A stretch of DNA of 64,000 nucleotides. It comes from Gammaproteobacteria bacterium. Lineage in GTDB: Bacteria; Pseudomonadota; Gammaproteobacteria; UBA4575. The notes below the pieces were generated by a model. The model saw only the letters and a list, made by a program, of their open reading frames with translations. It did not search any database and was not told the origin of the DNA. Shown here in pieces: positions 35,548 to 63,800 of the stretch (position 1 is the stretch's first letter; the number at the start of each line of letters is the position of its first letter). The DNA lies in the NCBI GenBank assembly GCA_965221955.1, contig CBDCTA010000028.1, positions 64,001 to 128,000 of the forward strand, read 5' to 3'. Both the position numbers and the translations under genes were made by a program.

Positions 35548-35931
35548 ATGAAAGTTTTTCATCTAATTTTCTTGTGCATGATGCTCGTTTTTGCTGTATT
35601 ACAGTGGAATGATGTTGACGCAAACACTTGGATTGTAATTTATCTAGCCACTGCAATTCTTGCGACCATTGCCTATAAAAATATTTGCCAGCCCTGCACA
35701 ATTACTTGGGCGTTTTTGGTATCTCTGTTTGCTATTTTCATGTTGATTGGTGTAGCACCTGGCTTAAGTGATTTAATAGCCAAGAATGCGTATACAGATA
35801 TCTTTTTCGCCATGGATGATAACAAGCCTTATATTGAACAAACTCGAGAAGCACTCGGGTTATTCATCATTTTGATATATTGTTTTAGTGTTTTAGTTTT
35901 TCAATTGAAAAATAATAGCAAAACCAAATGA
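35548..35931 (+). CDS. Transmembrane-220 family protein
   Basis: LQWND.D...W..IY, IEQTREALGL. Confidence 0.75.
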   Translation: MKVFHLIFLCMMLVFAVLQWNDVDANTWIVIYLATAILATIAYKNICQPCTITWAFLVSLFAIFMLIGVAPGLSDLIAKNAYTDIFFAMDDNKPYIEQTREALGLFIILIYCFSVLVFQLKNNSKTK

Positions 35932-36749
35932 GCATTTTAGATGTACCTTATGCTGCACCAAAAACCATCATTTTTGATTGGCACGCTACTTTGGTCGACA
36001 CCCATGATGCAATGTATCTAGCGGTGGATGAAGTTTTACCCAAACTTGCAGAATTAGGCTTAGATAAAGAAATTATTCCCATTGAACAAAGTAAAACGCT
36101 TGACGATGCTAAATTAGTTCAATATATAAAAGACAAGCGCAAGCTTCACCCAAAAATCAAAGAGGCAAAAAAAATCTCAAGAACAGACATTTTTGAAGTG
36201 CTCTTTGGAAACAACAAACAAGCTAAAAAAGCGGCACACAAAGCTTTCGACATTGCCTATCGAAATCATTTTGGGCACGTTACGGCACTTGAACCACGTT
36301 TTGAACATGTGCTGCATGATCTAAAAGCGCTGGGAGTAATTTTAGCTGTTCTCACCAATAGAAAACGTGAATTTATGGACCATGAAATCACTTGTGTCGA
36401 TGGACATGATTGGTCACATTTTTTTGACTCTGTTGTATGTGGTGATGATGTAGAACACCGCAAACCCTACCCCGATTTAATTCTTAAAGTTCTTGAAGAA
36501 TTAAAAATTGAGCCTGGCAGTCACGCCTGGTATGTAGGAGATAGTACTACCGATATCATTTCAGCTAGAGAAGCTAAAGTGACCGCTATTTTTTATAATG
36601 GAGCTCAATGGGATCAAGAATGGCTCGATAAAATTTTTCCAGGCACGACTAAACACCCTCATCAACCAGATTGTGTAGTCAACAATAGCCTTGAATTGCT
36701 TGGTATGGCAAAGAAATATGTCGAGAGCAGTAGTGTAATTGAAACTTAA
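35928..36749 (+). CDS. HAD-family hydrolase (phosphoglycolate phosphatase-like)
   Basis: FDWHATLVD, LTNR, KPYP, YVGDSTTD. Confidence 0.85.
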   Translation: MSILDVPYAAPKTIIFDWHATLVDTHDAMYLAVDEVLPKLAELGLDKEIIPIEQSKTLDDAKLVQYIKDKRKLHPKIKEAKKISRTDIFEVLFGNNKQAKKAAHKAFDIAYRNHFGHVTALEPRFEHVLHDLKALGVILAVLTNRKREFMDHEITCVDGHDWSHFFDSVVCGDDVEHRKPYPDLILKVLEELKIEPGSHAWYVGDSTTDIISAREAKVTAIFYNGAQWDQEWLDKIFPGTTKHPHQPDCVVNNSLELLGMAKKYVESSSVIET

Positions 36750-36760
36750 TAGTTATAACT

Positions 36761-37570
36761 ATGCCTCCAAAAGTTGTCGTATTTACTGACCTAGATGGTA
36801 CCTTACTTGACCATCATAATTATAGCTATGCTGCAGCTAAGCCTTGCATTAATTACATTTGCAAACATGGTATACCACTGATACTCACCAGCAGTAAAAC
36901 TAGCGTAGAGATCGAACAACTATGCATTGAATTAAACTATTTTCATCCATTTATTGCAGAAAATGGTGGAGTGCTCTGTACACCAAAAAACTATTTTACG
37001 AAAAATACTGAAACTGTTAACGAATATGAAAAAATTATAATTGGCGTTAGCAGAAATGATATCCAAATAGCTTTAGAACAACTAAAACCATCATTTCACT
37101 TTAAATCTTTTCTTGAAATGACTGCAGAAGAATTAATCTCCCATACAGGATTAACTAGACAACATGTTATTTATGCTAATCAACGTGATAGTACAGAGCC
37201 CTTATTATGGGCAGATGATGCAGAAAAGTTAAAAGATTTTGGATATCAACTTAAGCATTATAATTTAAGACTTGTAAGTGGTGGGCGCTTTCATCATGTA
37301 ATGGGAATACATGATAAAGCTTCTACAATGTTGAAATTAATAAATACATTTTCTAGCTACTTTGATCATGAAATCATCTCTATTGCGTTAGGTGACAGCC
37401 CAAACGACTTAGATATGCTTAAAACTGCAACATATGGCATCGTTATTCCTAATGACGATGCACCAAAAATGTGCATTGATAAACATGCTAACCTAAGGCG
37501 CGCAATTCATTCAGGGCCGCGTGGTTGGAATGATACATTATTGTCTTTATTAATGGAGTTAAACGAGTGA
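36761..37570 (+). CDS. Glucosyl/mannosyl-3-phosphoglycerate phosphatase (HAD-IIB)
   Basis: FTDLDGTLL, SSKT, ENGG, GGRFHH, LGDSPND..ML. Confidence 0.88.
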   Translation: MPPKVVVFTDLDGTLLDHHNYSYAAAKPCINYICKHGIPLILTSSKTSVEIEQLCIELNYFHPFIAENGGVLCTPKNYFTKNTETVNEYEKIIIGVSRNDIQIALEQLKPSFHFKSFLEMTAEELISHTGLTRQHVIYANQRDSTEPLLWADDAEKLKDFGYQLKHYNLRLVSGGRFHHVMGIHDKASTMLKLINTFSSYFDHEIISIALGDSPNDLDMLKTATYGIVIPNDDAPKMCIDKHANLRRAIHSGPRGWNDTLLSLLMELNE

Positions 37571-38778
37571 CTGATTTTTTCCAAAATGGCGTAATTGCAA
37601 CATTGCACAACTTAACTGATCGCAAAACGGAATCGATTGAAAAAGAACTACTGCAATGGAGCAAAAGCCGCCCAATGTCTTTAATCTTGCCTTGTTTATA
37701 TTCCGAATTACATGGCCCTGCACTTGAAAATATTATCGAAGAATTGACTGCAGCTTCATACATTTCAGAAATTATTATTGGTCTAGATGCTGCAAATAAA
37801 GACGAATTTGAACATGCCCGCGAATTCTTTAGCAAACTGCCACAACATCATGTCATTCTATGGAACGATGGACCAAACCTTAGAAAGATAGATCAAGATA
37901 TAAATGAGCATAGCTTAGCACCAGATCAAGCTGGAAAAGGTCGCAATGTTTGGTATTGCCTAGGCTATTTTCTTGCATCAGGAAAATCAAAAGCGGTTGC
38001 ATTACATGACTGCGACGTACTGACCTACGATCGAAGTATACCCGCAAAATTATTATATCCAGTAAATCACCCAACTTTTGATTATGTATTTTGTAAAGGC
38101 TATTACTATCGTGCACATGAAAATAATTTTTCTGGTCGTGTATCACGATTGTTAGTATTACCTCTTCTTACCGCACTAAAGCAATCCATTGCGCCACACG
38201 ATTATTTAGATTTTTTGGGAAGTTTTCGTTATGTGTTAGCAGGTGAGTTTTCAATGCGTGCAGGAGTTGTGAATTCTTTACGAATCCCTAGCGACTGGGG
38301 ATTAGAGATAGGCATACTTTCTGAAATGTATCGCAGATATTCAAATCAACGTATTTGTCAAGTCGATATTGCTGATTGTTATGATCATAAGCACCAAAGT
38401 CTTTCTGAAAATAACCCAGATGCTGGACTTTCAAAAATGAGCATAGATATCTCGAAAATTATTTTTCGTAAGCTTGCAACTCACGGTATTACTTTAACAC
38501 CTGAACAATTTCGCACGATTAAAGCCGCATATTACCGACGCGCATTAGATCTAATTGATAACTATTCAAATGACGCAGCAATGAATGAGCTTACTGTAGA
38601 TCGACATAAAGAAGAAAGCACTGTAGAGTTGTTTGCACAAAATATTATGAATGCAGGAGATAGATTTCTATCTAACCCAATGGAAACACCTTTTATGCCG
38701 ACATGGTCAAGAGTGGCAAGCGCAATTCCAAACATATTTGAAAATTTACACAAAGCGGTTACTGAAGATAACCTTTAA
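37567..38778 (+). CDS. Glucosyl-3-phosphoglycerate synthase-like glycosyltransferase
   Basis: DFFQNG.IATLH, GKGRNVW, LHDCD, GRVSRL, WGLEIG, YDHKHQ. Confidence 0.85.
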   Translation: MTDFFQNGVIATLHNLTDRKTESIEKELLQWSKSRPMSLILPCLYSELHGPALENIIEELTAASYISEIIIGLDAANKDEFEHAREFFSKLPQHHVILWNDGPNLRKIDQDINEHSLAPDQAGKGRNVWYCLGYFLASGKSKAVALHDCDVLTYDRSIPAKLLYPVNHPTFDYVFCKGYYYRAHENNFSGRVSRLLVLPLLTALKQSIAPHDYLDFLGSFRYVLAGEFSMRAGVVNSLRIPSDWGLEIGILSEMYRRYSNQRICQVDIADCYDHKHQSLSENNPDAGLSKMSIDISKIIFRKLATHGITLTPEQFRTIKAAYYRRALDLIDNYSNDAAMNELTVDRHKEESTVELFAQNIMNAGDRFLSNPMETPFMPTWSRVASAIPNIFENLHKAVTEDNL

Positions 38779-40529
38779 CCTTTATTTGTAATCCATAAGC
38801 ATTGGTATGGTTTCAAAATGATTGTTTCAGCAGAAAGGTCAATTACATCCCATTCAATTAAATCAATCCAGGTATCTGTACAAATAAGATTTATATTCGC
38901 CAACGAAAGAGGCTGATCTTTTTCAGTAACGTTATGAATCGCAAATATACTTTGTTCACGATCAACACTTTGACGCCAAAACCCGAATAAAGCATTACCT
39001 AGATGCAAAGTAAACTGAGTCGCATCTGGATGAAATGCCGCTTGCTTAGAGCGTATTGAAATCAGCCGCTTTAAATCATGAAAAATTTTACATAACTTAG
39101 AAGTATAGTCACTTAGCCTATGATCAATTTCTTCAAAATCCCACTGCCCTCTATTAATCGCACGATTATGATTTGTAACAGAGAGTTTTTCATAATCATT
39201 TTCACCAGCCAACAAGCTATGAATATAAAATGCTGGTATTCCCTCCAAACCTAACATTACCGTCTGTGAACATAAAAATCTTTCAATTTGATAATTATCT
39301 TTACCTACATGTGTGCCTTTCATAGCATCCATCCAAGTGATATTAAGCTCATAAGGACGTTCACCTGCATCTGTAATGGATCTCATAGTGACTTTTCCAC
39401 CAAACTGTTGCATACCCTCAGCCAATGAATCTATTGTTTCATTTGCCAAGATCCCTTCAGCTGGACGTAAACCAATCCCATCATGTGAAGCAGTGAAATT
39501 TAAATAGGTGCAATTTGCAGGCGCAGGCGGCAAACTCATCGACCAACGCACAAGATGTTCAGAAGTTCCTGCCCACATTGCATGCAGCAATAAAGGAGGT
39601 AAGCTGAAATTATAGATGATGTGTGCCTCATTAGAATTACCAAAATATTTCAAGTTTTCAATATTTGGTACATTCGTTTCAGTAATAAATAAAACTCTAG
39701 GAAAATAGCGTTCAATAAGCAGACGGAATACTTTTACAATTTCATGTGTTTCTGAGAGGTTGATACAGCTCGTGCCTATTTTTTTCCATATAAATGCGAT
39801 CGCATCTAAACGTATAACGCGTACTCCCTGTCCTATATAAAATTTAAGGATTTTAATAAACTCTAGCAATACCTCTGGATTTGAAAAGTCCAAATCAATT
39901 TGATCATGACTGAATGTACACCAAACATTCTTGTATCCATCTTTTGTTTTGATCTCTCTTAATAAACTACTAGATCGTGGACGTACAACTTTATTCAAGT
40001 CATCTTCTTCTTCTGCAGTTATAAAATAGTCACATCCTGGTTTTTTATTATCTAGAAACTGCTGAAACCATTCACTTTCAGAAGAAATATGGTTTATCAC
40101 TAAATCGGCCATTAAGTCGAACTGTTTAGATATTTTTTTAATATCCTGCCAATCTCCTAGCTCAGAATTAACACGTTTATAATCAATCACAGCAAAGCCA
40201 TCATCAGAGCTATAAGGGAAAAAAGGTAAAATATGAACAGTGCTTACCACATTCTTCAAATACTTCACTAAAAACTCATATAGCACTTTCAAAGGCTTAG
40301 CTGAATCCGAAAGAATTGAATTTCCGTATGTGATTAAATACACATCTTTTTCACTCCAAGCATCATGCACAAACGAGTCATCCACTTGCTCTATTGAGTT
40401 TTTTTCGTCGACAAATACGTTTGAAATCTTTTCAACTACTTGTTCAGCAATATCCTCGCCATAAACTTTTACGATATGTGAGTGCAATCGAGTATTGAAT
40501 TCTTGTTTTGTTAAGTATGAAACATCCAT
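38775..40529 (-). CDS. GH13_18 sugar phosphorylase (probable glucosylglycerate phosphorylase)
   Basis: HILPFFPYSSDDGF, RLDAIAF, TETNVP..EN..YFG, ASHDGIG, YELN. Confidence 0.87.
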   Translation of the reverse strand: MDVSYLTKQEFNTRLHSHIVKVYGEDIAEQVVEKISNVFVDEKNSIEQVDDSFVHDAWSEKDVYLITYGNSILSDSAKPLKVLYEFLVKYLKNVVSTVHILPFFPYSSDDGFAVIDYKRVNSELGDWQDIKKISKQFDLMADLVINHISSESEWFQQFLDNKKPGCDYFITAEEEDDLNKVVRPRSSSLLREIKTKDGYKNVWCTFSHDQIDLDFSNPEVLLEFIKILKFYIGQGVRVIRLDAIAFIWKKIGTSCINLSETHEIVKVFRLLIERYFPRVLFITETNVPNIENLKYFGNSNEAHIIYNFSLPPLLLHAMWAGTSEHLVRWSMSLPPAPANCTYLNFTASHDGIGLRPAEGILANETIDSLAEGMQQFGGKVTMRSITDAGERPYELNITWMDAMKGTHVGKDNYQIERFLCSQTVMLGLEGIPAFYIHSLLAGENDYEKLSVTNHNRAINRGQWDFEEIDHRLSDYTSKLCKIFHDLKRLISIRSKQAAFHPDATQFTLHLGNALFGFWRQSVDREQSIFAIHNVTEKDQPLSLANINLICTDTWIDLIEWDVIDLSAETIILKPYQCLWITNKG

Positions 40530-55949: not shown

Positions 55950-56525
55950 ATGGAAGATCTCATCGAAGAAATTCACTATGACCACATTAAATTTAGCAAG
56001 GTATTAGACATTCTTGCTGAGCAGCTCGAATGCATGCGTGATAACAAATCTGCTGACTATCCTCTAATGCTGGATGCAATAAATTATATCGAAAATTATA
56101 CTGAATTTGCGTTAGCCCCTAAAGAAGATGCAATTTTTAAAAGATCTTCAGAAGATGATAGTTTTGTAGACCTGAGAGGTACAATTAAGCTACTGCGTTC
56201 AGAAAACCGTGAACTGAAAACACTCTCTCGCAAGTTGCACGGCTATATCAATGCAGCATTAGAAAGCTCTATATTTGAAAAAGACAAGTTTGAGCGCAAA
56301 CTTGAAGCTTGCATTAAACGACAACGTGATCACATGCATATGGAGCAAATTATTATCTTTCCTCTTTTAAGGAAAAGATTAAGCGCTAAACAAATCGAAA
56401 AGTTAAGTTCCGATTACAAAGCCAAATCAGATACTAAAATTTCTGAAGATTTTTGCGAAAAATATAACGAACTCTATAAAAGAATTACTCATACAAGCCA
56501 TTCAGACACTAATAGTATTCATTAG
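55950..56525 (+). CDS. Hemerythrin-like domain protein, degenerate metal ligands
   Basis: DH..F..VL..L, PKEDAIF, HMHMEQ..IFP pattern. Confidence 0.7.
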   Translation: MEDLIEEIHYDHIKFSKVLDILAEQLECMRDNKSADYPLMLDAINYIENYTEFALAPKEDAIFKRSSEDDSFVDLRGTIKLLRSENRELKTLSRKLHGYINAALESSIFEKDKFERKLEACIKRQRDHMHMEQIIIFPLLRKRLSAKQIEKLSSDYKAKSDTKISEDFCEKYNELYKRITHTSHSDTNSIH

Positions 56526-56548: not shown

Positions 56549-57925
56549 CTAGCCATTAGCAATGGAGAGCATTTCTTCACGGCGCGTAAATTTCTCTCGA
56601 GGTTTATTTTTGGGTTCTCCTGCTGCGACTTCTGCTGCATCAATTTTCATCCATTGGCCATAATTGATGTATTGCACACCATTGCCATCCAAAATTTTAT
56701 ACAAAGCTTCTCGACCAGGTTTATTTGCATCTAATTTCGACACATCTTCTAGCAACATATCTACTGACTCCACTGCGCATGCGCGGTTGGTACCTATAAT
56801 TCCAGAAGGACCACGCTTAATCCAACCTGCTGTATATAAACCTGGCACCACATCCCCTCCATGTTCAGTCGTAATACGTCCATTTTCATTAGGGATGGTG
56901 CCCCAACGATCATAGAAAGGTACACCTGGAATAGGCACACCATTGTAGCCAATACTGCGGAATAAAATTCCGCAGTCAATTTCCATGGTTTCACCAATTC
57001 CTTTACAAGATTGTTTAAATGGCTCTCCATCAAGAGTATTAATTTCAAATACAACTTTCTCTAAGCGACCATCACCTTCCAATCGAATAGGGCTTTTTAG
57101 AAACGTAGAAATACAGGTACGCGGCTTTCCTGTGTCTTCAGATTCTGCAAACTTTTGAAAGATTTCGACATTCTTTTTATTCCCACGCCCTTCTTTCATT
57201 TCCAGTTCTTGCAAACTCGTCTCGTTCAGCTCTAATTCCTTAGGATCAATATAGGCACGACAGTTTTCAATTTCTAAGAATTCTTTTAATTCTTTAGAAG
57301 CAAATTTGGCTTGCGCTGGACCTCGTCGCCCAACCACATAAATCGTTTTAATTTTACTCTCAGCTAATGCATCCAGTGCATGTTGCGAGATATCAGTATG
57401 TTTCAATTCGTCTACAGACTTCGCCAGAATTCGTGACACATCTGCTGCAACATTCCCTTGACCAATCACAATTGCAGTTTCGTGTGAAAGATCAAATGTA
57501 CGGTCCCGGTAATCTGGATGTCCGTTATACCAACCTACAAACTCTGTTGCCGTGTAACTACCTAATAAATCTTCGCCAGGTACGCCTAACTTACGATCGG
57601 TTTCAGCACCACAGGTATAAATTACGGCATGGTGTGTTTCTTGTAATTCTTCTGCCTTAATATCCTTACCTACCGTTACATTGCCGACAAAATTAAACTC
57701 AGGATTTTGTGCGATTTTCTTATATACTTCGATCGCCTGCTTGAGTTTTGGATGATCAGGAGCCACACCACTGCGCACCAGACCAAATGGTGCAGGCAAC
57801 CTTTCAATCAAATCGATTTCAACATTGAGGTCAGACTTAATTAATGCTTCGGTTGCATAGAAACCACTTGGACCACTTCCAACAATGGCTACACGTAATG
57901 GGTTACTTTCGCTTCCAAGACTCAT
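56549..57925 (-). CDS. Ferredoxin--NADP+ reductase, adrenodoxin-reductase/FprA type
   Basis: VGSGPSGFY, GLVRSGVAPDH, WYNGHP, GQGNVA.DV.R, GRRG, GWIKRGPSGIIGTN. Confidence 0.92.
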   Translation of the reverse strand: MSLGSESNPLRVAIVGSGPSGFYATEALIKSDLNVEIDLIERLPAPFGLVRSGVAPDHPKLKQAIEVYKKIAQNPEFNFVGNVTVGKDIKAEELQETHHAVIYTCGAETDRKLGVPGEDLLGSYTATEFVGWYNGHPDYRDRTFDLSHETAIVIGQGNVAADVSRILAKSVDELKHTDISQHALDALAESKIKTIYVVGRRGPAQAKFASKELKEFLEIENCRAYIDPKELELNETSLQELEMKEGRGNKKNVEIFQKFAESEDTGKPRTCISTFLKSPIRLEGDGRLEKVVFEINTLDGEPFKQSCKGIGETMEIDCGILFRSIGYNGVPIPGVPFYDRWGTIPNENGRITTEHGGDVVPGLYTAGWIKRGPSGIIGTNRACAVESVDMLLEDVSKLDANKPGREALYKILDGNGVQYINYGQWMKIDAAEVAAGEPKNKPREKFTRREEMLSIANG

Positions 57926-57970
57926 TCAAAACTCCTCATCATTAATCTATTTCTTATATTTATTTACTAC

Positions 57971-58000
57971 AAACAAAACGCACAGGAAATTGCTGTGCGT
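57971..58000 (-). terminator. Terminator-like hairpin between the ferredoxin and FNR genes
   Basis: Stem ACGCACAG/CTGTGCGT followed by TTTGTTT on the minus strand. Confidence 0.55.
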
Positions 58001-58025
58001 AATTAAAGTCTATATATTTTCTAGC

Positions 58026-58147
58026 AAAAGTTCTGATTTTTTCTGAGACGAGACAAAAAATGTTGCAAAAAACGGAGCTTACTAATCAGTAAATGAGTAT
58101 TTTTAAAACATTTTTTAACGAAGTATTCAGAACAAATCAGAGATTCT
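58026..58147. repeat. Palindromic MITE/RPE-like element, copy B
   Basis: Terminal inverted repeats AAAAGTTCTGATTTTTTCTGA / TCAGAACAAATCAGAGATTCT (17/21); inner AAAAAATGTT...AACATTTTTT. Confidence 0.7.
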
Positions 58148-58153
58148 TGAGCT

Positions 58154-58459
58154 TTAGAATCCTAATTCTGATTTGCGATCTTCAGCACCAGGCAATGGAT
58201 CCATGGGCTCTTCAATTAAAGGCAGGTCACCGCATTTTTCAGCGTTGATTTCAACCCAGCCTTCTTGGCCTTCAGGAATGTCATCTTCTTCATAAATAGC
58301 CTCTACTGGACATTCTGGAATACATGCACTGCAATCAATACAAACCTCAGGGTCGATATAAAGCATTTCATCATCGTAGTGAAAACACGCAACTGGACAA
58401 ACCGAAACACAATCTGTGAATCGACAGCCCTTACAATTTTCAGTTACAACTGTAGTCAT
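58154..58459 (-). CDS. Dicluster ferredoxin (Azotobacter FdI/FdxA type)
   Basis: CKGCRFTDCVSVCPV and CIDCSACIPECP; start MTTVVTENC at 58459 after AGGAG. Confidence 0.93.
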   Translation of the reverse strand: MTTVVTENCKGCRFTDCVSVCPVACFHYDDEMLYIDPEVCIDCSACIPECPVEAIYEEDDIPEGQEGWVEINAEKCGDLPLIEEPMDPLPGAEDRKSELGF

Positions 58460-58546
58460 TAGTTTGTCTCCTATATTATTAAGATAATTTAACCACAAAT
58501 ATAGAAAACGCGATGAGTGTTCCGAAGCAAGTGATGTTTTCGAGTA

Positions 58547-59365
58547 TTATTTTGAAAACAATAAAACCTCGCCACGATTGAGTTCAATCCCGTCTCCGCT
58601 ATAACGTTTGTAGATACCATTTAGGTGTTTATCTTGAATTTTCCTCTTGAAGCCATGGTCTTGCAACTTCCTAAGATAAAATCTTAAAAATAGTGGGCGA
58701 TATGTGCACGCATACTCGAAGCTAGGTAACATCTGCGCATCTTCTAATGATGCAATAGTGCCACGTTTCATACCTGCACCCGTTCGAATACCTAATTCAC
58801 CCAAAACAATAATCGAACCTGCCAACATATTTACACCTGTGAAATCACCTGCGTTTCCACCAATCGCAATAAAACCACGGCGCATGGCACTACCAATCTC
58901 GTTTTTTGCATCGCCATGAATAAATATTTCTCCACCTGTAATACCTACGGTATGACCTCTGTATGCAGCTCCAACCATGTGGCCAGCATTCTTTTTAACA
59001 ACAATACGACCACCCGACATTTCAGGGCCCACCCAATCTCCAGCATTACCTTCTACGACAATTTCTCCACCTGACATTCCTAATCCAAGGTGCATGCCTA
59101 CATCACCTTCAATGATGATTTTGCCCTCTGACATACCGGCACCAATCATTTTTACATTGGATAAATCGCCCTCGAGTAAAATTTCAGAATTGCCTTTACC
59201 TGTTACTGTAAAGAAATCGCCTAAATTTGCTTTTACATTGCCATGCATTACAGGTAAATGCTCAATACCTGATTGTGATAGACCAGATAGTGTTGCCGTG
59301 TTAAGCACTTCAGCTTCCAACGGTACATCTGGTTGAGTGTGCAATTTTAAATGCGCTGTAGACAT
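58547..59365 (-). CDS. fwdC: Formylmethanofuran dehydrogenase / Fhc subunit C
   Basis: Repeated G..M.GG.I.V.G.AG beta-helix units, GNVKANLGDFF. Confidence 0.92.
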   Translation of the reverse strand: MSTAHLKLHTQPDVPLEAEVLNTATLSGLSQSGIEHLPVMHGNVKANLGDFFTVTGKGNSEILLEGDLSNVKMIGAGMSEGKIIIEGDVGMHLGLGMSGGEIVVEGNAGDWVGPEMSGGRIVVKKNAGHMVGAAYRGHTVGITGGEIFIHGDAKNEIGSAMRRGFIAIGGNAGDFTGVNMLAGSIIVLGELGIRTGAGMKRGTIASLEDAQMLPSFEYACTYRPLFLRFYLRKLQDHGFKRKIQDKHLNGIYKRYSGDGIELNRGEVLLFSK

Positions 59366-59418
59366 AATATGTTACTTTATATCTGACTTATTTCTTGTTG
59401 TATTTAATGTAAAAAAAT

Positions 59419-60309
59419 TTATCCAACTAATTCATTTAAGTGGAATTTATACTTACCTAGCTCTCCACCGTAATTACCTGCCGAAATCATTGTGGCACCT
59501 TTTTCTGCTGCCGCCTTTATACCTCGTCGCATGGCTTCTTTAACGGCATCTTCAGTGAGACCATCGATCACGATCTCATAAATGGCTTCGACATTTTCAG
59601 GCACAACTGTATTATTACTAATTGATCGAAGCGTTGGACAATATGCGTCATTTGTTGATGCAATCATGCCTTTATATTTTGCACCGATTTTACTTCCCGA
59701 TCGCACGACCCCCTGCGGGAAAGGCAAAAATACGCCACCCACTTCACGCATTGCATGAGTTGCTGCAATCGACGCGCGTAATGCGATGCCTCTTGTTGAA
59801 CCAAATATAATTAAATTACCCCCGCCTACTGCGGGTTTAATTCCGAATTGATCATCAATGAGAAACTCACCTGACATTACAGGAATCCGCCACAAGCGAA
59901 TGTCATCAATAAGCTTACTAATTTGATAACCATCACCAAAGAAACGTAATTTACCACCAACAGAAACAGAATCTTCAGATTCCAAACCGTTGTAACAGGC
60001 TGATGTCGGACAAGTCATCACACACTGACCGATACGATCAATTAATTGACCTGCAATGGTTTTAGAACTCATAGTGAATAACAACACGCTTATTCCAGGA
60101 CGACCATCTGGTGTATCTGATTCAGGTATTTCACACTCCACTGCAGCTTCTAATTTGCAACGAATTACAGATGTAGCAAACCCTGTCATAGAAGCCGCCG
60201 CCGCACGCGCCCATTGTTTCGTATCAGCAGTGATAATCACTCGCGAGCCACACATTTCAAATGCTTCTGCAAATGTATCTACAATTTCAGTTTTACCAAT
60301 TTTCATCAT
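59419..60309 (-). CDS. ftr: Formylmethanofuran--H4MPT N-formyltransferase (Ftr/FhcD)
   Basis: DTFAEAF, GFATSVI, TPDGRPG, RIGQCVMTCPT, VRSGSK, AGNYGG. Confidence 0.95.
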   Translation of the reverse strand: MMKIGKTEIVDTFAEAFEMCGSRVIITADTKQWARAAAASMTGFATSVIRCKLEAAVECEIPESDTPDGRPGISVLLFTMSSKTIAGQLIDRIGQCVMTCPTSACYNGLESEDSVSVGGKLRFFGDGYQISKLIDDIRLWRIPVMSGEFLIDDQFGIKPAVGGGNLIIFGSTRGIALRASIAATHAMREVGGVFLPFPQGVVRSGSKIGAKYKGMIASTNDAYCPTLRSISNNTVVPENVEAIYEIVIDGLTEDAVKEAMRRGIKAAAEKGATMISAGNYGGELGKYKFHLNELVG

Positions 60310-60322
60310 GTTGATAACTAAA

Positions 60323-61969
60323 CTAAGCTTTAGGGTTTACAGGAACCACTTCATGTTTGTGTAAATATTCTTCACCAATTGCATAGTTGCTAAACTTAAC
60401 CGAATAATAATCTTCAAAGAATGGCTCAATTTCACCCGCAATATCTTCGTTATAACCTGGTTTAGAATGCAGTAGTTTGCCCTTATGGTCTGTTGCAAAT
60501 TCATGATCTTTAATTACCGTTACACCATCTTTGATGACATAACGTGGTGCATTAAACATCGCTTCTTTATCATCTTCTTCAGTGTAGATTGTAATGTCCG
60601 CATCAGCGCCGTTTCCAAGATGACCTTTATTCGCCAACCCCAAGGCTCTTGCAGGGCCAGCACGAGTAATAATGGCAATTTCATTTAAAGTATATTCACG
60701 ATCTAAGTCACGCAAACTAGATTGGTCAATTGCTTTTTGATTTACATGTTTCAGTGCTTCTTTTCTATAACCACTATCCATTAATAACTTAATCAGTTTT
60801 GGATAACTCATAAATGAACCACCATTTGGATGATCTGTTGATAGCAAAACACGCCATGGGTCTTTTGAATGCAGAAACAATTCTAAACCCATTGCCCATT
60901 GCAAGGCGTGGGTGTACACACTTTCTTGATAAGAAAACGGAATAATTCCACACCCACTTTCACATTCTGTATCAGCATTTACCCACTTCGCAGGTTTTAC
61001 GTTTCTTAACATCCACGCCAAGGGGGCATCTGCAGTCATTGCAGTCGCTTTACCAAACATGACCTGACCCACATCACAGGTGATGTTTTCGTTATCATTT
61101 ACGTAATCAATTATATCTTTTACACCAGACTTGGCGTTTTTATTTAACTCTCCCCCAAAACTATGAAACTGGATATGCGCCATGTGTACTCGACGACCTT
61201 GTGCAGCTTTCATCGTGTCCAGCGTGGTACTGATGTTTCCGCTGTGACCCAAATTATTACAATGCACGTGTGGCGGATGAGGCAATCCTAATTCATGCGC
61301 AGCTTCAATAAAGCTTTCGATAACATGATTTGGCGTGATATCGTAGTGATCGATTTTCTCATTAACGTTGGTAATATTTGCATTTTTACGTCCCTTCCAT
61401 AATTCATCACTACCCACGTTTACTAGCTTAAGTGTGTGTGCATGCACGGAATTAATCCACCATGCAATTGCTTCTTTAAATTCGTTCTTGCGACCTTCTT
61501 TAAGTAGTTTATATAAAAATGCATTATTCCCAAGCAACACATAGAAACCTTTATCAATAACTGGTGTGTCATCTAATTCTTCTAAGGTATGTCTTGCAGA
61601 TATCGGTGGAACTGCTGCTTCCATTGCTGTGGTGTATCCCATGGTGGCATATCGATACCCAGTCGCAAAAGTAGAAGGCACAATACCTCCTGTTCCGGAA
61701 CGTGTAATCGCAGTTTTTGGATGCACATCTAAACGATGATCTTCAGGTTGAAGTTTTCGTGCTAGATTTACTTTTGCACCTGCAATATGACAATGAATAT
61801 CTACTGCGCCTGGCATAATCACCATGCCATGTGCATCTATTTTAGTTGCTGAACCCGAAACTGAATCAACGACCTTGCCGTCTTTTACACAGACGTCTTG
61901 AACTTTACCATCGATATTGTTTGCAGGATCGTATACACGACCATTTACAATTCTTAACTCTGAAGACAT
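60323..61969 (-). CDS. fwdA: Formylmethanofuran dehydrogenase / Fhc subunit A (binuclear amidohydrolase)
   Basis: DIHCHIAG, KLVN, HVHCNNLG, HIQFH, STDHPNG, TRAGPA. Confidence 0.95.
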   Translation of the reverse strand: MSSELRIVNGRVYDPANNIDGKVQDVCVKDGKVVDSVSGSATKIDAHGMVIMPGAVDIHCHIAGAKVNLARKLQPEDHRLDVHPKTAITRSGTGGIVPSTFATGYRYATMGYTTAMEAAVPPISARHTLEELDDTPVIDKGFYVLLGNNAFLYKLLKEGRKNEFKEAIAWWINSVHAHTLKLVNVGSDELWKGRKNANITNVNEKIDHYDITPNHVIESFIEAAHELGLPHPPHVHCNNLGHSGNISTTLDTMKAAQGRRVHMAHIQFHSFGGELNKNAKSGVKDIIDYVNDNENITCDVGQVMFGKATAMTADAPLAWMLRNVKPAKWVNADTECESGCGIIPFSYQESVYTHALQWAMGLELFLHSKDPWRVLLSTDHPNGGSFMSYPKLIKLLMDSGYRKEALKHVNQKAIDQSSLRDLDREYTLNEIAIITRAGPARALGLANKGHLGNGADADITIYTEEDDKEAMFNAPRYVIKDGVTVIKDHEFATDHKGKLLHSKPGYNEDIAGEIEPFFEDYYSVKFSNYAIGEEYLHKHEVVPVNPKA

Positions 61970-62050
61970 ATATTTTAGTTGTTATTTTTTACAACAACTC
62001 CATCGCTGCAGTTGCTCTAAATTTATTAATTATGTTATCCGTTTTAAAAT

Positions 62051-63424
62051 TTACGCAGCAACGCGTGCTTTACTTCCCTTAAGCTTTTCTTTAACGCGTT
62101 TGCGAATCGCCTCTAATACTTCTTGGTCGGATGGATAGGTCGATTCAAATGCAGGGCGCAAAGAAATCGGCACATCATCCATTCTATAAACTGTACCACC
62201 TGTGTTAATGCCATAAGTTGAAACTGCAAAACGCACTTTAGCAATACTACTTGTCACTGTGTCTTTTGTATCTAATGAAATAATTGGAATTTTCTTCATA
62301 TGTTCAATTGCAGCTTTAGGAAAATTTGACGCAGGATCAGAAGCAATAATCATCGCCGCATCCGCCTCTCCACGTGAAAGCAAATCAGTCGTTGTAAATT
62401 CACCTGGATTAAAACGAGGGTAGCCGCGATTGAAATTCACACCAAAAGGATATCCTGTTTGCCAAGACACAACATTATCAGCTCCTGTCACATTACCATG
62501 GCCACGTACAGGTTTAGCTACGAAGTGAGTAAATTCATTTAAATCTGCCGCTAATGACAATAACGCTCCCGAATTAAAATGCCGCCCTCTCGTCATCGTT
62601 AAACCCATACCAAAAAACAACACGCCAAATTGGCAGTTCTTCATGCGATCAACTAAGTCATCTAATACATCTCGTGATACGCCTGTTTGTTCTTCAATGT
62701 CGTTACTAATCTTTTTACCTTTAACCAACGCACGCAACGCCCATAGTACTTCAAAGTCTTTACCAGGTTTAAGTTTTACAAAGATATCCGCTACAGGCGC
62801 ACTTGGTGTTTTACGCACATCAAATAACACTACAGTACGATCTTTTTTCCCATTTGGAATGTACATACCTTTTGGTGTTACCGCATAACGTGTGAAATGT
62901 CGTGGATGTGATTCAGCTGGATTACCACCCCAGTAGATAATTAAATCTGCACGGTTCTTAACTTCACCTAATGTTGCAGTACTCTCCCCTACTCCTTGGA
63001 AGGCCATACCCGATGGACCGTGACAAACTGACGTTGTGGTATCAATGTTCCCGTTTATCGTATCCATGATATCTACGGTGACACGTTGTGCTTCACAAGT
63101 TGAATCACTCATTCCATACGTGATTGGAAACTTTGCATCAACTAAGATCTTTGCTGCTGCTTCAACACCTTCTTCAAAACTGGCTTTTTTACCATCAATT
63201 AACACTTCTGGGCGCGTATCTAAAGTGTGTTCGTAAAACCAGGCACGGCCTAAAACACACGCTTTTTTAGCTTTGGTAATTTTATGTTGATCTAGATCGA
63301 CTGTGAGTTCCATATCGTCACAAACACAACCACAAAAGGTGCACGTTGCGTCTTTAACGATTTTAATATTTTTATTTTCTTCTTTGGTTTTTACGGGTGC
63401 TTTTGCAGGCGCTGTTTCACTCAT
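62051..63424 (-). CDS. fwdB: Formylmethanofuran dehydrogenase subunit B with intact Fe-S and Mo/W motifs
   Basis: CTFCGCVCDD...KACVLG, TTSVCHGP, EVKNRAD, HPRH, RGHGNV.G, YRMD. Confidence 0.93.
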   Translation of the reverse strand: MSETAPAKAPVKTKEENKNIKIVKDATCTFCGCVCDDMELTVDLDQHKITKAKKACVLGRAWFYEHTLDTRPEVLIDGKKASFEEGVEAAAKILVDAKFPITYGMSDSTCEAQRVTVDIMDTINGNIDTTTSVCHGPSGMAFQGVGESTATLGEVKNRADLIIYWGGNPAESHPRHFTRYAVTPKGMYIPNGKKDRTVVLFDVRKTPSAPVADIFVKLKPGKDFEVLWALRALVKGKKISNDIEEQTGVSRDVLDDLVDRMKNCQFGVLFFGMGLTMTRGRHFNSGALLSLAADLNEFTHFVAKPVRGHGNVTGADNVVSWQTGYPFGVNFNRGYPRFNPGEFTTTDLLSRGEADAAMIIASDPASNFPKAAIEHMKKIPIISLDTKDTVTSSIAKVRFAVSTYGINTGGTVYRMDDVPISLRPAFESTYPSDQEVLEAIRKRVKEKLKGSKARVAA

Positions 63425-63455
63425 AACAAATATTCCAAATAATTAAGTAATAAAT

Positions 63456-63800
63456 TTATCTTGCTTTAGTAACGGTAACTTCCATATGTTTAGACAATGG
63501 CATACCTGTTCCAGCAGTATCCGATGCCATCAATTCACTTGAAGGTGGCCCATACGGAATAAAAATCATTCCTGAGGGAAGGTCTTCATCTTTTTTACTT
63601 TTACAGGTCACTACAGTTTGGCCAACCTCTGACTTCAAACGAATTTTGTCACCATCTTTCAACTTAAGTCGCTTCATGTCTTTTTCATTCAGCTCAGCAG
63701 TAGAGGTTACTTTCTTATATTCGTCTTTAAGCTTGCCTTCATTTAGAGATGTCCCCTGGCTTTGTGACCGGCCGGGTACAAGTATCATGGTCTCCGCCAT
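63456..63800 (-). CDS. fwdD: Formylmethanofuran dehydrogenase subunit D (molybdopterin dinucleotide-binding)
   Basis: GRSQSQG, GMIFIPYGP, TAGTGMP.SK; immediately upstream of B. Confidence 0.88.
   Translation of the reverse strand: MAETMILVPGRSQSQGTSLNEGKLKDEYKKVTSTAELNEKDMKRLKLKDGDKIRLKSEVGQTVVTCKSKKDEDLPSGMIFIPYGPPSSELMASDTAGTGMPLSKHMEVTVTKAR

What the first reader, a model, noticed from the sequence alone, without database searches (positions are those of the whole stretch)
56549..63800. Archaeal-type, apparently redox-active formylmethanofuran dehydrogenase (fwdDBA-ftr-C) next to a ferredoxin and a ferredoxin-NADP reductase
Seen: the B subunit keeps the [4Fe-4S] motif CTFCGCVCDD..C, the metal-ligand Cys in TTSVCHGP (TGT, not Sec) and RGHGNV; a separate fwdD precedes it; a dicluster ferredoxin gene starts 87 bp after fwdC and an FprA-type FNR follows on the same strand. 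Known: the Methylorubrum extorquens Fhc has a degenerate B subunit without Mo/W-pterin, has no FwdD and releases formate, whereas methanogen Fwd interconverts formyl-MFR and CO2 using FwdF/G polyferredoxins. Inference: this bacterium, which has proteobacterial-type fae/mtdB/mch, may oxidise formyl-MFR straight to CO2 and pass electrons via the small Fd to NADP+, a compact Fwd-Fd-FNR module (no fwdF/G in this window). fwdD-containing clusters occur in some other bacteria, so the novelty is mainly the Fd/FNR coupling. Caveat: a terminator-like hairpin (57971-58000) separates fdx from fnr.
Basis: partly seen in the sequence, partly recalled or inferred. Interest (0 to 1): 0.82.

Follow-up and report, generated by a model that had tools for sequence, protein, structure and literature searches.

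The report
Bacterial formyl-methanofuran dehydrogenase with own ferredoxin-NADP chain
An uncultured marine gammaproteobacterium carries a seven-gene block that looks like a working, methanogen-type formyl-methanofuran dehydrogenase joined to its own ferredoxin and ferredoxin-NADP reductase, which may burn one-carbon units straight to CO2 instead of releasing formate as known bacterial systems do.

Summary
On the minus strand lie fwdD, fwdB, fwdA, ftr, fwdC, a 7Fe FdxA-type ferredoxin and an FprA-type ferredoxin-NADP reductase.

- **FwdB looks catalytic.** It keeps the four [4Fe-4S] cysteines, the Cys-His metal site (TGT codon) and RGHGN. It matches methanogen FwdB at 378-389 bits, against 56 bits for the degenerate Methylorubrum FhcB.
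- **Gene order is conserved.** In 58 related loci with enough sequence, fwdC-fdx-fnr is directly adjacent in 55 and nearby in 2. Flanking genes vary.
- **The parts co-occur.** In the 56 genomes of the organism's order, FwdB-type, this ferredoxin paralog and the reductase occur in exactly the same 38.
- **Some genomes have only this route.** Sixteen genomes lack the classic Fhc, and 15 of these lack the NAD-formate dehydrogenase ortholog. All 16 keep Mch, MobA and an FdhD-like gene.
- **This genome has both routes.** A classic fhcBADC-FDH cluster lies 9 kb beyond the window.

Best reading: formyl-H4MPT is oxidised to CO2 and the electrons pass through ferredoxin to NADP+. No enzyme, metal or RNA data exist. 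I rate it a new variant of a known kind.

The parts
63456..63800 (-). fwdD (114 aa), the molybdopterin-binding cap subunit (the 'fourth domain')
   Evidence: PF01568 at E 9.6e-13 and NF042908 FwdD at E 8e-25. Best solved relatives are FwdD chains 2ki8_A, 9sfi_S and 5t5i_D. Found upstream of fwdB in 79 of 80 loci.
62051..63424 (-). fwdB (457 aa), the Mo/W-bisPGD plus [4Fe-4S] dehydrogenase subunit
   Evidence: TIGR03129 at 506 bits against a cut-off of 328. It scores 378-389 bits to archaeal FwdB chains and 56 bits to M. extorquens FhcB 6s6y_B. It is 25% identical to the genome's own FhcB.
63314..63343 (-). Codons for C28-x2-C31-x3-C35-D-D, the N-terminal [4Fe-4S] motif. The fourth Cys, C56, is at 63257-63259.
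   Evidence: Aligned to the 5t5i_B motif. C28, C31, C35 and C56 are invariant in 59 of 59 sequences.
63020..63025 (-). Codons TGT CAC for C134-H135, the metal-ligand Cys and catalytic His
   Evidence: Read directly from the sequence. Aligned to Cys118-His119 of 5t5i_B (residue roles from PMC6926001 passages). Invariant in 59 of 59.
62492..62506 (-). Codons for R307-G-H-G-N311; the Arg is the equivalent of FwdB Arg288
   Evidence: Aligned. Invariant in 59 of 59. Replaced by 'GGSKG' in the genome's own FhcB.
60323..61969 (-). fwdA (548 aa), the amidohydrolase (formyl-methanofuran hydrolase/synthase) subunit
   Evidence: TIGR03121 at 702 bits. It scores 436-485 bits to the five archaeal FwdA chains listed and 346 bits to FhcA 6s6y_A.
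59419..60309 (-). ftr (296 aa), formylmethanofuran:H4MPT formyltransferase, lying between fwdA and fwdC as fhcD does in fhcBADC
   Evidence: PF01913 plus PF02741, and NF002554 at 422 bits. It scores equally to FhcD 6s6y_D (301 bits) and archaeal Ftr 1ftr_A (300 bits).
58547..59365 (-). fwdC (272 aa), the beta-helix scaffold subunit, with an FhcC-like C-terminus
   Evidence: TIGR03122 at 252 bits. Alignments to archaeal FwdC end near residue 223. M. extorquens FhcC aligns over residues 9-268, including the C-terminal RYSGD..L..GE stretch.
58154..58459 (-). fdx (101 aa), a 7Fe FdxA/FdI-type ferredoxin; a dedicated paralog
   Evidence: ATG with AGGAG upstream. Azotobacter FdI chains match at E about 1e-27. 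Nine Cys are invariant in 59 of 59 sequences. It occurs in the same 38 of 56 genomes as FwdB, while a second paralog at 48-56% identity lies elsewhere.
57978..58000 (-). Terminator-like hairpin plus T tract in the 228-bp fdx-fnr spacer
   Evidence: Scan hit with 8 pairs, 5 of them G-C. The spacer folds with z -2.9. The hairpin is not found in any of the 99 loci held.
56549..57925 (-). fnr (458 aa), an FprA/adrenodoxin-reductase-type NADPH:ferredoxin oxidoreductase
   Evidence: 1lqt_A at E 1.5e-108 and 1cjc_A at E 5.8e-98, both full length; the GRRG segment is conserved. One copy per genome, in the same 38 of 56 genomes as FwdB.

Best explanation
The seven genes fwdD-fwdB-fwdA-ftr-fwdC-fdx-fnr form one module: a bacterial, redox-active formyltransferase / formyl-methanofuran dehydrogenase with its own electron outlet.

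Proposed path:
1. Ftr moves the formyl group from formyl-H4MPT to the furan coenzyme.
2. FwdA hydrolyses it to formate.
3. FwdB-FwdD oxidises the formate to CO2 at a Cys-ligated Mo- or W-bisPGD centre.
4. Electrons leave through the FwdB [4Fe-4S] cluster to the dedicated 7Fe ferredoxin.
5. The FprA-type flavoprotein passes them to NADP+.

The net reaction would be formyl-H4MPT + NADP+ -> CO2 + NADPH, with no free formate. That replaces the Fhc plus formate dehydrogenase pair of known bacterial methylotrophs.

Shown here: gene content, intact catalytic motifs, conserved gene order, identical genome distribution of the parts, and genomes that have only this route.

Inferred: cofactor loading, activity, the direction of electron flow, that the ferredoxin docks on FwdB, and that Ftr is a bound subunit.
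For: **FwdB is archaeal-type and intact.**
- It scores 378-389 bits to solved archaeal FwdB against 56 bits to FhcB.
- The Fe-S cysteines, Cys134-His135 and Arg307 are invariant in 59 of 59 sequences.
- The genome's own FhcB has lost the last three.
- FwdD is present.

**Synteny.**
- 80 loci were kept out of 479 relatives found.
- 22 are uninformative: 15 end before fwdC, 6 have under 400 bp after it, and 1 ends just after fdx.
- Of the other 58, 55 have fwdC-fdx-fnr adjacent, with median gaps of 78 and 55 bp. Two have them 1.4-2.3 kb downstream, and one has none in the remaining 1375 bp.
- The nearest flanking ORFs fall into 25 similarity clusters upstream (66 loci) and 21 downstream (51 loci), so the block itself is the conserved unit.

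**Phylogenetic profile in the order (56 genomes, 11 genera).**
- FwdB-type at 77% identity or more, FNR at 69% or more and the in-cluster Fdx at 79% or more are in the same 38 genomes and in none of the other 18.
- In genus g9 only 1 of 16 genomes has them, G026. There they form one block, with fdhD directly after fnr.

**Natural knock-outs.**
- 16 genomes, all at least 90% complete, have no FhcB-type gene.
- 15 of the 16 lack an FdsA ortholog, against 38 of 40 Fhc-bearing genomes that have one.
- All 16 keep Mch, MobA and an FdhD-like gene.

**Partner identities.**
- The ferredoxin is FdI 7Fe type.
- The reductase is FprA type with the GRRG segment kept.
- The role of those arginines in binding the NADPH 2'-phosphate, and FprA reducing a 7Fe ferredoxin in mycobacteria, are recalled from memory and not from a call.

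**Thermodynamics (recalled values).** Formyl-MFR/CO2 is about -530 mV, the FdI [3Fe-4S] cluster about -425 mV and NADP+ -320 mV, so the chain runs downhill in the oxidative direction.

**Precedent.** An archaeal Fwd is wired to a bound flavin F420 reductase for oxidative operation (PMC11493965, abstract).
Against: - There are no biochemical, metal or expression data. No RNA run holds the stretch.
- All carriers seen are uncultured MAGs.
- Related genomes are not independent, so the 38/38/38 profile rests on few gain or loss events.
- In this strain fdx and fnr are separated by 228 bp with a terminator-like hairpin.
- AdR/FprA-type reductases are usually described as working from NADPH to ferredoxin (recalled).
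- Three of the 16 Fwd-only genomes carry an ambiguous Fdh/Nas-like molybdoenzyme: 550 bits to Fdh-alpha, below its 666 cut-off. One, G051, has a true Fdh-alpha.
- Metal-free formate dehydrogenase could not be excluded, because the control genomes were also silent.
- The ferredoxin scores below the NCBIfam FdxA cut-off, 110 against 135.
Confidence: 0.6

Rival explanations
1. The Fwd complex is active, but the ferredoxin is a general low-potential electron carrier feeding other consumers. The reductase then only equilibrates the ferredoxin and NADP(H) pools, possibly in the NADPH-to-ferredoxin direction, rather than being the obligatory outlet.
For: In this strain a terminator-like hairpin and 228 bp separate fdx from fnr. 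FprA/AdR enzymes are usually described as NADPH-to-ferredoxin reductases (recalled).
Against: FNR is absent from all 18 Fwd-less genomes of the order and present in all 38 with Fwd. The median fdx-fnr gap is 55 bp in 55 loci. A separate housekeeping FdxA paralog exists in 50 of 56 genomes.
Confidence: 0.15
2. The module runs in reverse: NADPH, FNR and ferredoxin drive CO2 reduction to formyl-methanofuran for C1 assimilation or cofactor formylation, as in methanogens.
For: Archaeal Fwd works reductively with ferredoxin (PMC6926001 passages). FprA-type enzymes take electrons from NADPH (recalled).
Against: NADPH at -320 mV cannot reduce CO2 to formyl-MFR at -530 mV without energy coupling (recalled values), and no bifurcating or membrane-coupled partner lies in the block. 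The genome has Fae, MtdB-type and Mch genes and methanethiol oxidase, which yields formaldehyde. No RuBisCO was found.
Confidence: 0.07
3. FwdB-FwdD is an Fhc-like scaffold without a working metal site. The complex releases formate, and fdx and fnr are neighbours by descent only.
For: That is how the only characterised bacterial enzyme, M. extorquens Fhc, works (PMC6926001 passages). This genome has an NAD-formate dehydrogenase that could take the formate.
Against: All residues lost in FhcB are invariant here. FwdD is kept. 15 of 16 Fwd-only genomes lack the FdsA ortholog. The fdx/fnr distribution matches Fwd exactly.
Confidence: 0.05
4. The ferredoxin, and perhaps the reductase, are permanent subunits. 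The ferredoxin would take the place of FwdG, giving one NADP-dependent holoenzyme rather than a diffusible chain. This is a structural variant of the best explanation.
For: Archaeal complexes carry small bound ferredoxin subunits, and an archaeal Fwd carries a bound flavin reductase (PMC11493965 abstract). Gaps between the genes are tight in relatives.
Against: The ferredoxin is FdI type and matches FwdG only at E 2e-4. Nothing tested here tells bound from diffusible.
Confidence: 0.13

Closest known systems
Archaeal tungsten/molybdenum formylmethanofuran dehydrogenase FwdABCDFG (e.g. Methanothermobacter wolfeii, PDB 5T5I)
   Same: The A, B, C and D subunits are all present. FwdB keeps the [4Fe-4S] motif, the Cys-His metal site and the Arg. 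FwdA and FwdB score higher to archaeal chains than to Fhc chains.
   Different: There are no FwdF or FwdG polyferredoxins. Instead there is a free-standing 7Fe FdI-type ferredoxin and an FprA-type flavoprotein. ftr sits inside the cluster, and FwdC has an FhcC-like C-terminus. The host is bacterial, and oxidative operation is presumed.
Formyltransferase/hydrolase complex FhcABCD of Methylorubrum extorquens (PDB 6S6Y)
   Same: The gene order is B-A-(ftr/fhcD)-C. The C-terminus of the C subunit aligns full length with FhcC. The context is the bacterial H4MPT pathway.
   Different: FhcB lacks the metal-site Cys, His and Arg and has no FwdD, and Fhc releases formate (PMC6926001 passages). Here all of these are kept. 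The same genome also has a true Fhc-type cluster whose B subunit is 25% identical and degenerate at the active site.
F420-reducing Fwd complex of Ca. Ethanoperedens thermophilum
   Same: It is an Fwd run oxidatively, with a dedicated flavin-dependent reductase as electron outlet instead of free low-potential ferredoxin (PMC11493965 abstract).
   Different: That reductase is bound and reduces F420. Here the outlet would be a 7Fe ferredoxin plus an NADP-type reductase, in a bacterium.
FprA plus 7Fe ferredoxin (FdxA) redox pair of mycobacteria; Azotobacter FdI
   Same: FNR is full-length FprA type, E 1.5e-108. The ferredoxin has the FdI cysteine pattern.
   Different: Those pairs are described as NADPH-to-ferredoxin suppliers for other enzymes (recalled). 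Here the pair is genetically tied to Fwd and is proposed to run from ferredoxin to NADP+.

Membership tests
Formylmethanofuran dehydrogenase (Fwd/Fmd) | B subunit with N-terminal CxxCxxxC...C [4Fe-4S] motif | tested here: met
   Aligned to 5t5i_B. C28, C31, C35 and C56 are invariant in 59 of 59 sequences.
Formylmethanofuran dehydrogenase (Fwd/Fmd) | Metal-ligand Cys/Sec followed by His, plus the conserved Arg | tested here: met
   C134 (TGT), H135 and R307. Residue roles are from PMC6926001 passages.
Formylmethanofuran dehydrogenase (Fwd/Fmd) | Separate FwdD cap subunit | tested here: met
   PF01568, and NF042908 at E 8e-25 (87 bits, below that model's 175-bit cut-off). Best solved relatives are FwdD chains.
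Formylmethanofuran dehydrogenase (Fwd/Fmd) | FwdA amidohydrolase and FwdC beta-helix subunits | tested here: met
   TIGR03121 at 702 bits and TIGR03122 at 252 bits, both over their cut-offs. Individual zinc ligands were not checked.
Formylmethanofuran dehydrogenase (Fwd/Fmd) | FwdF/FwdG polyferredoxin subunits | tested here: not met
   No such ORF lies in the block. The ferredoxin matches FwdG only at E 2e-4.
Formylmethanofuran dehydrogenase (Fwd/Fmd) | Mo/W-bisPGD content and formyl-MFR dehydrogenase activity | not testable with these tools
   Only indirect evidence: MobA in 53 of 56 genomes, an FdhD-like gene in 51 of 56, and a TupABC-like operon in the genome.
Formyltransferase/hydrolase complex (Fhc) | B subunit without the metal-site residues, and no FwdD | tested here: not met
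   The residues are kept and FwdD is present. The genome's separate FhcB shows the degenerate state.
Formyltransferase/hydrolase complex (Fhc) | Formyltransferase gene inside the cluster (order B-A-D-C) and an FhcC-type C-terminus that docks it | tested here: met
   Gene order. Full-length alignment to 6s6y_C. The docking role is from PMC6926001 passages. Binding itself was not tested.
7Fe ferredoxin (Azotobacter FdI / FdxA) | Cys pattern CxxCxxxxCxxxCP ... CxxCxxCxxxCP and the C-terminal extension | tested here: met
   Aligned to FdI chains at E about 1e-27. The cysteines are invariant. The NCBIfam FdxA equivalog score is 110, below its 135 cut-off.
FprA / adrenodoxin reductase-type NADPH:ferredoxin reductase | Full-length two-domain FAD/NADP fold with the Arg-Arg NADPH 2'-phosphate site | tested here: met
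   1lqt_A over residues 9-456 at E 1.5e-108; the GRRG segment aligns with FprA R199-R200. The residue role is recalled.

The most novel reading that the evidence does not exclude
This is the first NADP-linked formyl-methanofuran dehydrogenase. It is a self-contained, mobile seven-gene module that oxidises formyl-H4MPT directly to CO2 in oxic marine Gammaproteobacteria, and in whole genera it has replaced Fhc plus formate dehydrogenase.

It would also be a living intermediate between archaeal Fwd and bacterial Fhc: the formyltransferase is already recruited and the C subunit is already Fhc-like, but the dehydrogenase is not yet lost.
Probability: 0.4. Interest if true: 0.82.

Novelty: new variant of a known kind. 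Interest (0 to 1): 0.72.

Why it matters
Textbook bacterial C1 oxidation ends the H4MPT pathway with Fhc releasing formate. The only characterised bacterial enzyme has a dead dehydrogenase subunit (PMC6926001 passages). A review passage states that fwdD is not present in Proteobacteria (PMC5020050).

Here an intact Fwd with FwdD is found in 479 genome stretches, of which I examined only the best 80; those carry mainly Gammaproteobacteria MAG labels. It is always tied to its own ferredoxin and NADP reductase, and in 16 genomes it is the only route.

If it is active, three things follow:
- Carbon and redox budgets for marine and sponge-associated C1 and methylated-sulfur oxidisers change, giving NADPH instead of formate plus NADH.
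- It would be an oxygen-exposed Mo/W CO2/formate catalyst with a simple NADP-linked electron chain, of interest for biocatalysis.
- It offers a testable intermediate for the Fwd-to-Fhc evolutionary path proposed from the Fhc structure.

Tried and rejected
- **Expression.** The look-up of sequencing runs listed no RNA holder, only three runs of one study held as contigs. Read laying was therefore not used, and co-transcription is untested.
- **Complex prediction.** FwdB + FwdD + ferredoxin as partner gave weak support. The score was 0.43 (runs 0.43, 0.52, 0.16) against a best control of 0.00. Partner pLDDT was at least 86, and the runs agreed in at least 90% of contacts. In the tool's calibration the mark was reached by 58 of 80 solved complexes and 2 of 110 mismatched pairs, but only 7 of those 80 passed at 0.60 or under. 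No interface was given. I do not count this as evidence.
- **Metal-free NAD-formate dehydrogenase (NF005750).** 0 of 56 genomes matched, but the control genomes were silent too, so this is inconclusive.
- **Molybdate binding protein ModA.** Not found in the own genome, which is 96.6% complete. A TupABC-like operon was found instead, below the curated cut-offs. W against Mo stays open.
- **Hairpin conservation.** The exact stem pattern occurs in none of the 99 loci held.
- **Names for close and distant FwdB relatives.** These returned only 'MAG Gammaproteobacteria bacterium' and one Pirellulales cluster. No cultured carrier was seen.
- **Rooted phylogeny.** The representative library gave 661 proteins at E 1e-30 or better but no names, so I built no rooted tree of archaeal against bacterial B subunits.
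- **Donor of the G026 block.** Affinities were mixed and no clear source emerged.
- **Earlier findings.** The tool was not open.
- **Literature.** Searches found no paper describing an Fwd-ferredoxin-FNR module. The lists behind the 149 bacterial FwdB of PMC10100899 may include this clade.

Full report
**What is there**

Window bases 56549-63800 carry seven genes on the minus strand.

| Gene | Coordinates | Size | Family evidence |
|---|---|---|---|
| fwdD | 63456-63800 | 114 aa | Molydop_binding; FwdD model E 8e-25 |
| fwdB | 62051-63424 | 457 aa | TIGR03129, 506 bits (cut-off 328) |
| fwdA | 60323-61969 | 548 aa | TIGR03121, 702 bits |
| ftr | 59419-60309 | 296 aa | FTR and FTR_C domains |
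| fwdC | 58547-59365 | 272 aa | TIGR03122, 252 bits |
| fdx | 58154-58459 | 101 aa | small ferredoxin |
| fnr | 56549-57925 | 458 aa | flavoprotein |

The ferredoxin's real start is the ATG at 58459, behind an AGGAG, which leaves 87 bp after fwdC. A 228-bp spacer with a terminator-like hairpin (58000-57978) separates it from fnr. The window is G000:C28:64001-128000, from a 2.69-Mb, 96.6%-complete assembly.

**The B subunit is archaeal-type and looks catalytic**

- Against all solved structures, FwdB matches archaeal FwdB chains at 378-389 bits (9sfi_Q, 5t5i_B, 8rja_B). It matches the degenerate FhcB of Methylorubrum extorquens (6s6y_B) at only 56 bits.
- Its CTFCGCVCDD...C motif, TTSVCHGPS and RGHGNV align column for column with 5t5i_B. 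The ligand cysteine is a TGT codon.
- The Fhc structure paper (passages read) names the features lost in FhcB: Cys118, His119, Arg288, the N-terminal [4Fe-4S] domain and FwdD.
- All of these are present here. C28, C31, C35, C56, C134, H135 and R307 are invariant in an alignment of 59 relatives.
- FwdA is also nearer to archaeal FwdA than to FhcA (436-485 against 346 bits). Ftr scores equally to both kinds.
- FwdC is mixed. Archaeal FwdC aligns only to about residue 223, but FhcC aligns over 9-268, including the C-terminal segment. The Fhc paper says that segment holds the formyltransferase.
- The gene order B-A-ftr-C is that of fhcBADC. The block therefore reads as an Fhc-like architecture that has kept a working dehydrogenase.

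**The two small partners**

- The ferredoxin is of the Azotobacter FdI 7Fe type (E about 1e-27). All nine FdI cysteines are invariant. It resembles FwdG only at E 2e-4.
- The flavoprotein is a full-length FprA/adrenodoxin reductase homolog (1lqt_A at E 1.5e-108).
- The GRRG segment aligns with FprA R199-R200. That these residues bind the NADPH 2'-phosphate is recalled.

**A second, classic route outside the window**

The same contig carries fhcB-A-D-C 9.3 kb beyond the window end, on the other strand (L012:11134-15796). It is followed directly by a NuoE/NuoF-like fusion and a 928-aa Fdh-alpha, that is, an NAD-formate dehydrogenase. This FhcB is 25% identical to FwdB. It keeps the N-terminal cysteines but has lost the Cys-His site and the RGHGN segment. 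Methanethiol oxidase genes lie between the two clusters.

**Synteny**

A scan of one genome per species found 479 stretches encoding a relative; the best 80 were kept. All are MAGs, labelled mainly Gammaproteobacteria. The labels include Ca. Porisulfidus, Ca. Oxydemutatoraceae, a USC-gamma bin and sponge-derived bins.

- fwdD precedes fwdB in 79 of 80 loci; the other locus starts at fwdB.
- 22 of the 80 are uninformative for what follows fwdC: 15 end before fwdC, 6 have under 400 bp after it, and 1 ends 312 bp after fdx.
- Of the remaining 58, 55 have fwdC-fdx-fnr directly adjacent (median gaps 78 and 55 bp). Two have the pair 1.4-2.3 kb downstream on the same strand. One has no fdx in its last 1375 bp.
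- This holds down to 74% FwdB identity and 59% FNR identity.
- In 18 loci the classic fhcB-type cluster follows fnr within 1 kb on the same strand.
- The nearest flanking ORFs fall into 25 similarity clusters upstream (66 loci) and 21 downstream (51 loci). The seven genes, not the neighbourhood, are what is conserved.

**Phylogenetic profile**

The organism's order holds 56 genomes in one family and 11 genera.

| Feature | Genomes (of 56) |
|---|---|
| FwdB-type, at least 77% identity | 38 |
| FNR, at least 69% identity | the same 38; none of the other 18 |
| In-cluster ferredoxin, at least 79% identity | the same 38 |
| Second FdxA paralog, 48-56% identity, elsewhere | 50 (14 of the 18 Fwd-less genomes) |
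| FhcB-type, at least 48% identity to own FhcB | 40 |

- The in-cluster ferredoxin is therefore a dedicated copy, not the housekeeping one.
- In genus g9 only one genome of 16, G026, has the block. There fdhD follows fnr directly. That adjacency was seen in 1 of 82 loci only.
- Combining the FwdB and FhcB results, 22 genomes have both systems, 18 have Fhc only and 16 have Fwd only. The 16 are genera g3, g4 and g11, all at least 90% complete.
- The FdsA ortholog (at least 62% identity) is in 38 of the 40 Fhc genomes. The two misses are 82% and 77% complete. It is in 1 of the 16 Fwd-only genomes.
- Of the other 15 Fwd-only genomes, 11 have no hit at E 1e-40, one has only a 26% hit, and three have a 34% hit.
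- In G003 that 34% hit scores 550 bits to Fdh-alpha (cut-off 666) and 500 to NasC, so it is ambiguous.
- All 56 genomes keep Mch. MobA passes its cut-off in 53 of 56; the misses are incomplete genomes.
- An FdhD-like gene (120-143 bits, cut-off 141) is in 51 of 56, including 16 of 16 Fwd-only genomes.
- Kin are not independent, so these counts reflect a few gains and losses, not 56 trials.

**How it most likely works**

Formaldehyde enters through Fae, an MtdB-type dehydrogenase and Mch, all in the window. One likely source is methanethiol oxidase.

1. Ftr passes the formyl group to the furan coenzyme.
2. FwdA hydrolyses it.
3. FwdBD oxidises the formate to CO2.
4. The FwdB cluster reduces the 7Fe ferredoxin.
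5. The FprA-type enzyme reduces NADP+.

Recalled potentials (about -530, -425 and -320 mV) make this downhill, and make the reverse infeasible without coupling. An archaeal Fwd with a bound flavin F420 reductase is a precedent for an oxidative Fwd with a dedicated outlet (PMC11493965 abstract).

The genome lacks PQQ methanol dehydrogenase and RuBisCO. The pathway therefore looks dissimilatory. The metal is open: a TupABC-like operon is present and ModA was not found.

**What is known**

- A 2016 review passage says fwdD is absent from Proteobacteria.
- A 2023 survey counts 149 bacterial FwdB and ascribes them to transfer from Archaea, without describing partners.
- Five full-text searches found no description of an Fwd-ferredoxin-FNR module. 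Supplements were closed.

**Verdict**

I rate it a new variant of a known kind. My confidence in the full mechanism is 0.6.

Noticed in passing
beyond the window: G000:C28:137134-146352 (L012:11134-17581, L013:43-2355): A classic fhcBADC cluster is followed directly by a NuoE/NuoF-like fusion and a 928-aa Fdh-alpha (NAD-formate dehydrogenase), divergent from the fwd block. Its FhcB keeps the N-terminal CxxCxxxCDD...C motif, unlike the M. extorquens FhcB described in PMC6926001.
   Followed up: partly
beyond the window: L012:6446-9477 (G000:C28:132446-135477): There are two methanethiol oxidase (MtoX) genes. One is intact (459 aa). The other is split into 278-aa and 134-aa ORFs, so it is probably broken. 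Next to them lie an MbnH/MauG-like di-haem enzyme and thiol-disulfide oxidoreductases.
   Followed up: no
window 57926-58153: The fdx-fnr spacer is 228 bp here against a median of 55 bp in relatives. It folds unusually well (z -2.9) with long imperfect inverted repeats. It may be a small inserted element specific to this strain.
   Followed up: partly
L035 and L014 (close relatives of the window genome): The alleles are mosaic. In L035, FwdD, Ftr, FwdC, Fdx and FNR are 90-96% identical to the window, but FwdB is 78% and FwdA 66%. Those two are closest to the G026 block (88% and 84%). This suggests recombination inside the cluster.
   Followed up: partly
window 3041-31427: This is a dense island of H4MPT and methanofuran biosynthesis and C1-transfer genes. 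It includes MfnD-, MfnE- and MfnF-like genes, beta-RFAP synthase, MptN-like ligase, Fae, Mch, an Mpt_N dehydrogenase, DUF447 and a CitG-like protein.
   Followed up: no
window 35928-40529: Compatible-solute genes: glucosyl-3-phosphoglycerate synthase, a mannosyl/glucosyl-3-phosphoglycerate phosphatase-like gene and a sucrose-phosphorylase-like gene.
   Followed up: no
G000:C3:86754-90422 (L094): A TupABC-like oxyanion transporter is present (TupA model at 248 bits, below its 400 cut-off), while ModA was not found in the genome. This hints at tungstate uptake.
   Followed up: partly
window 55950-56525 (+): A hemerythrin-domain protein lies convergent to fnr and a ChrA-type chromate transporter lies beyond it. 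A hemerythrin-like match was seen in 1 of the 80 loci (L017) and ChrA only in the closest relatives, so neither is part of the block.
   Followed up: partly
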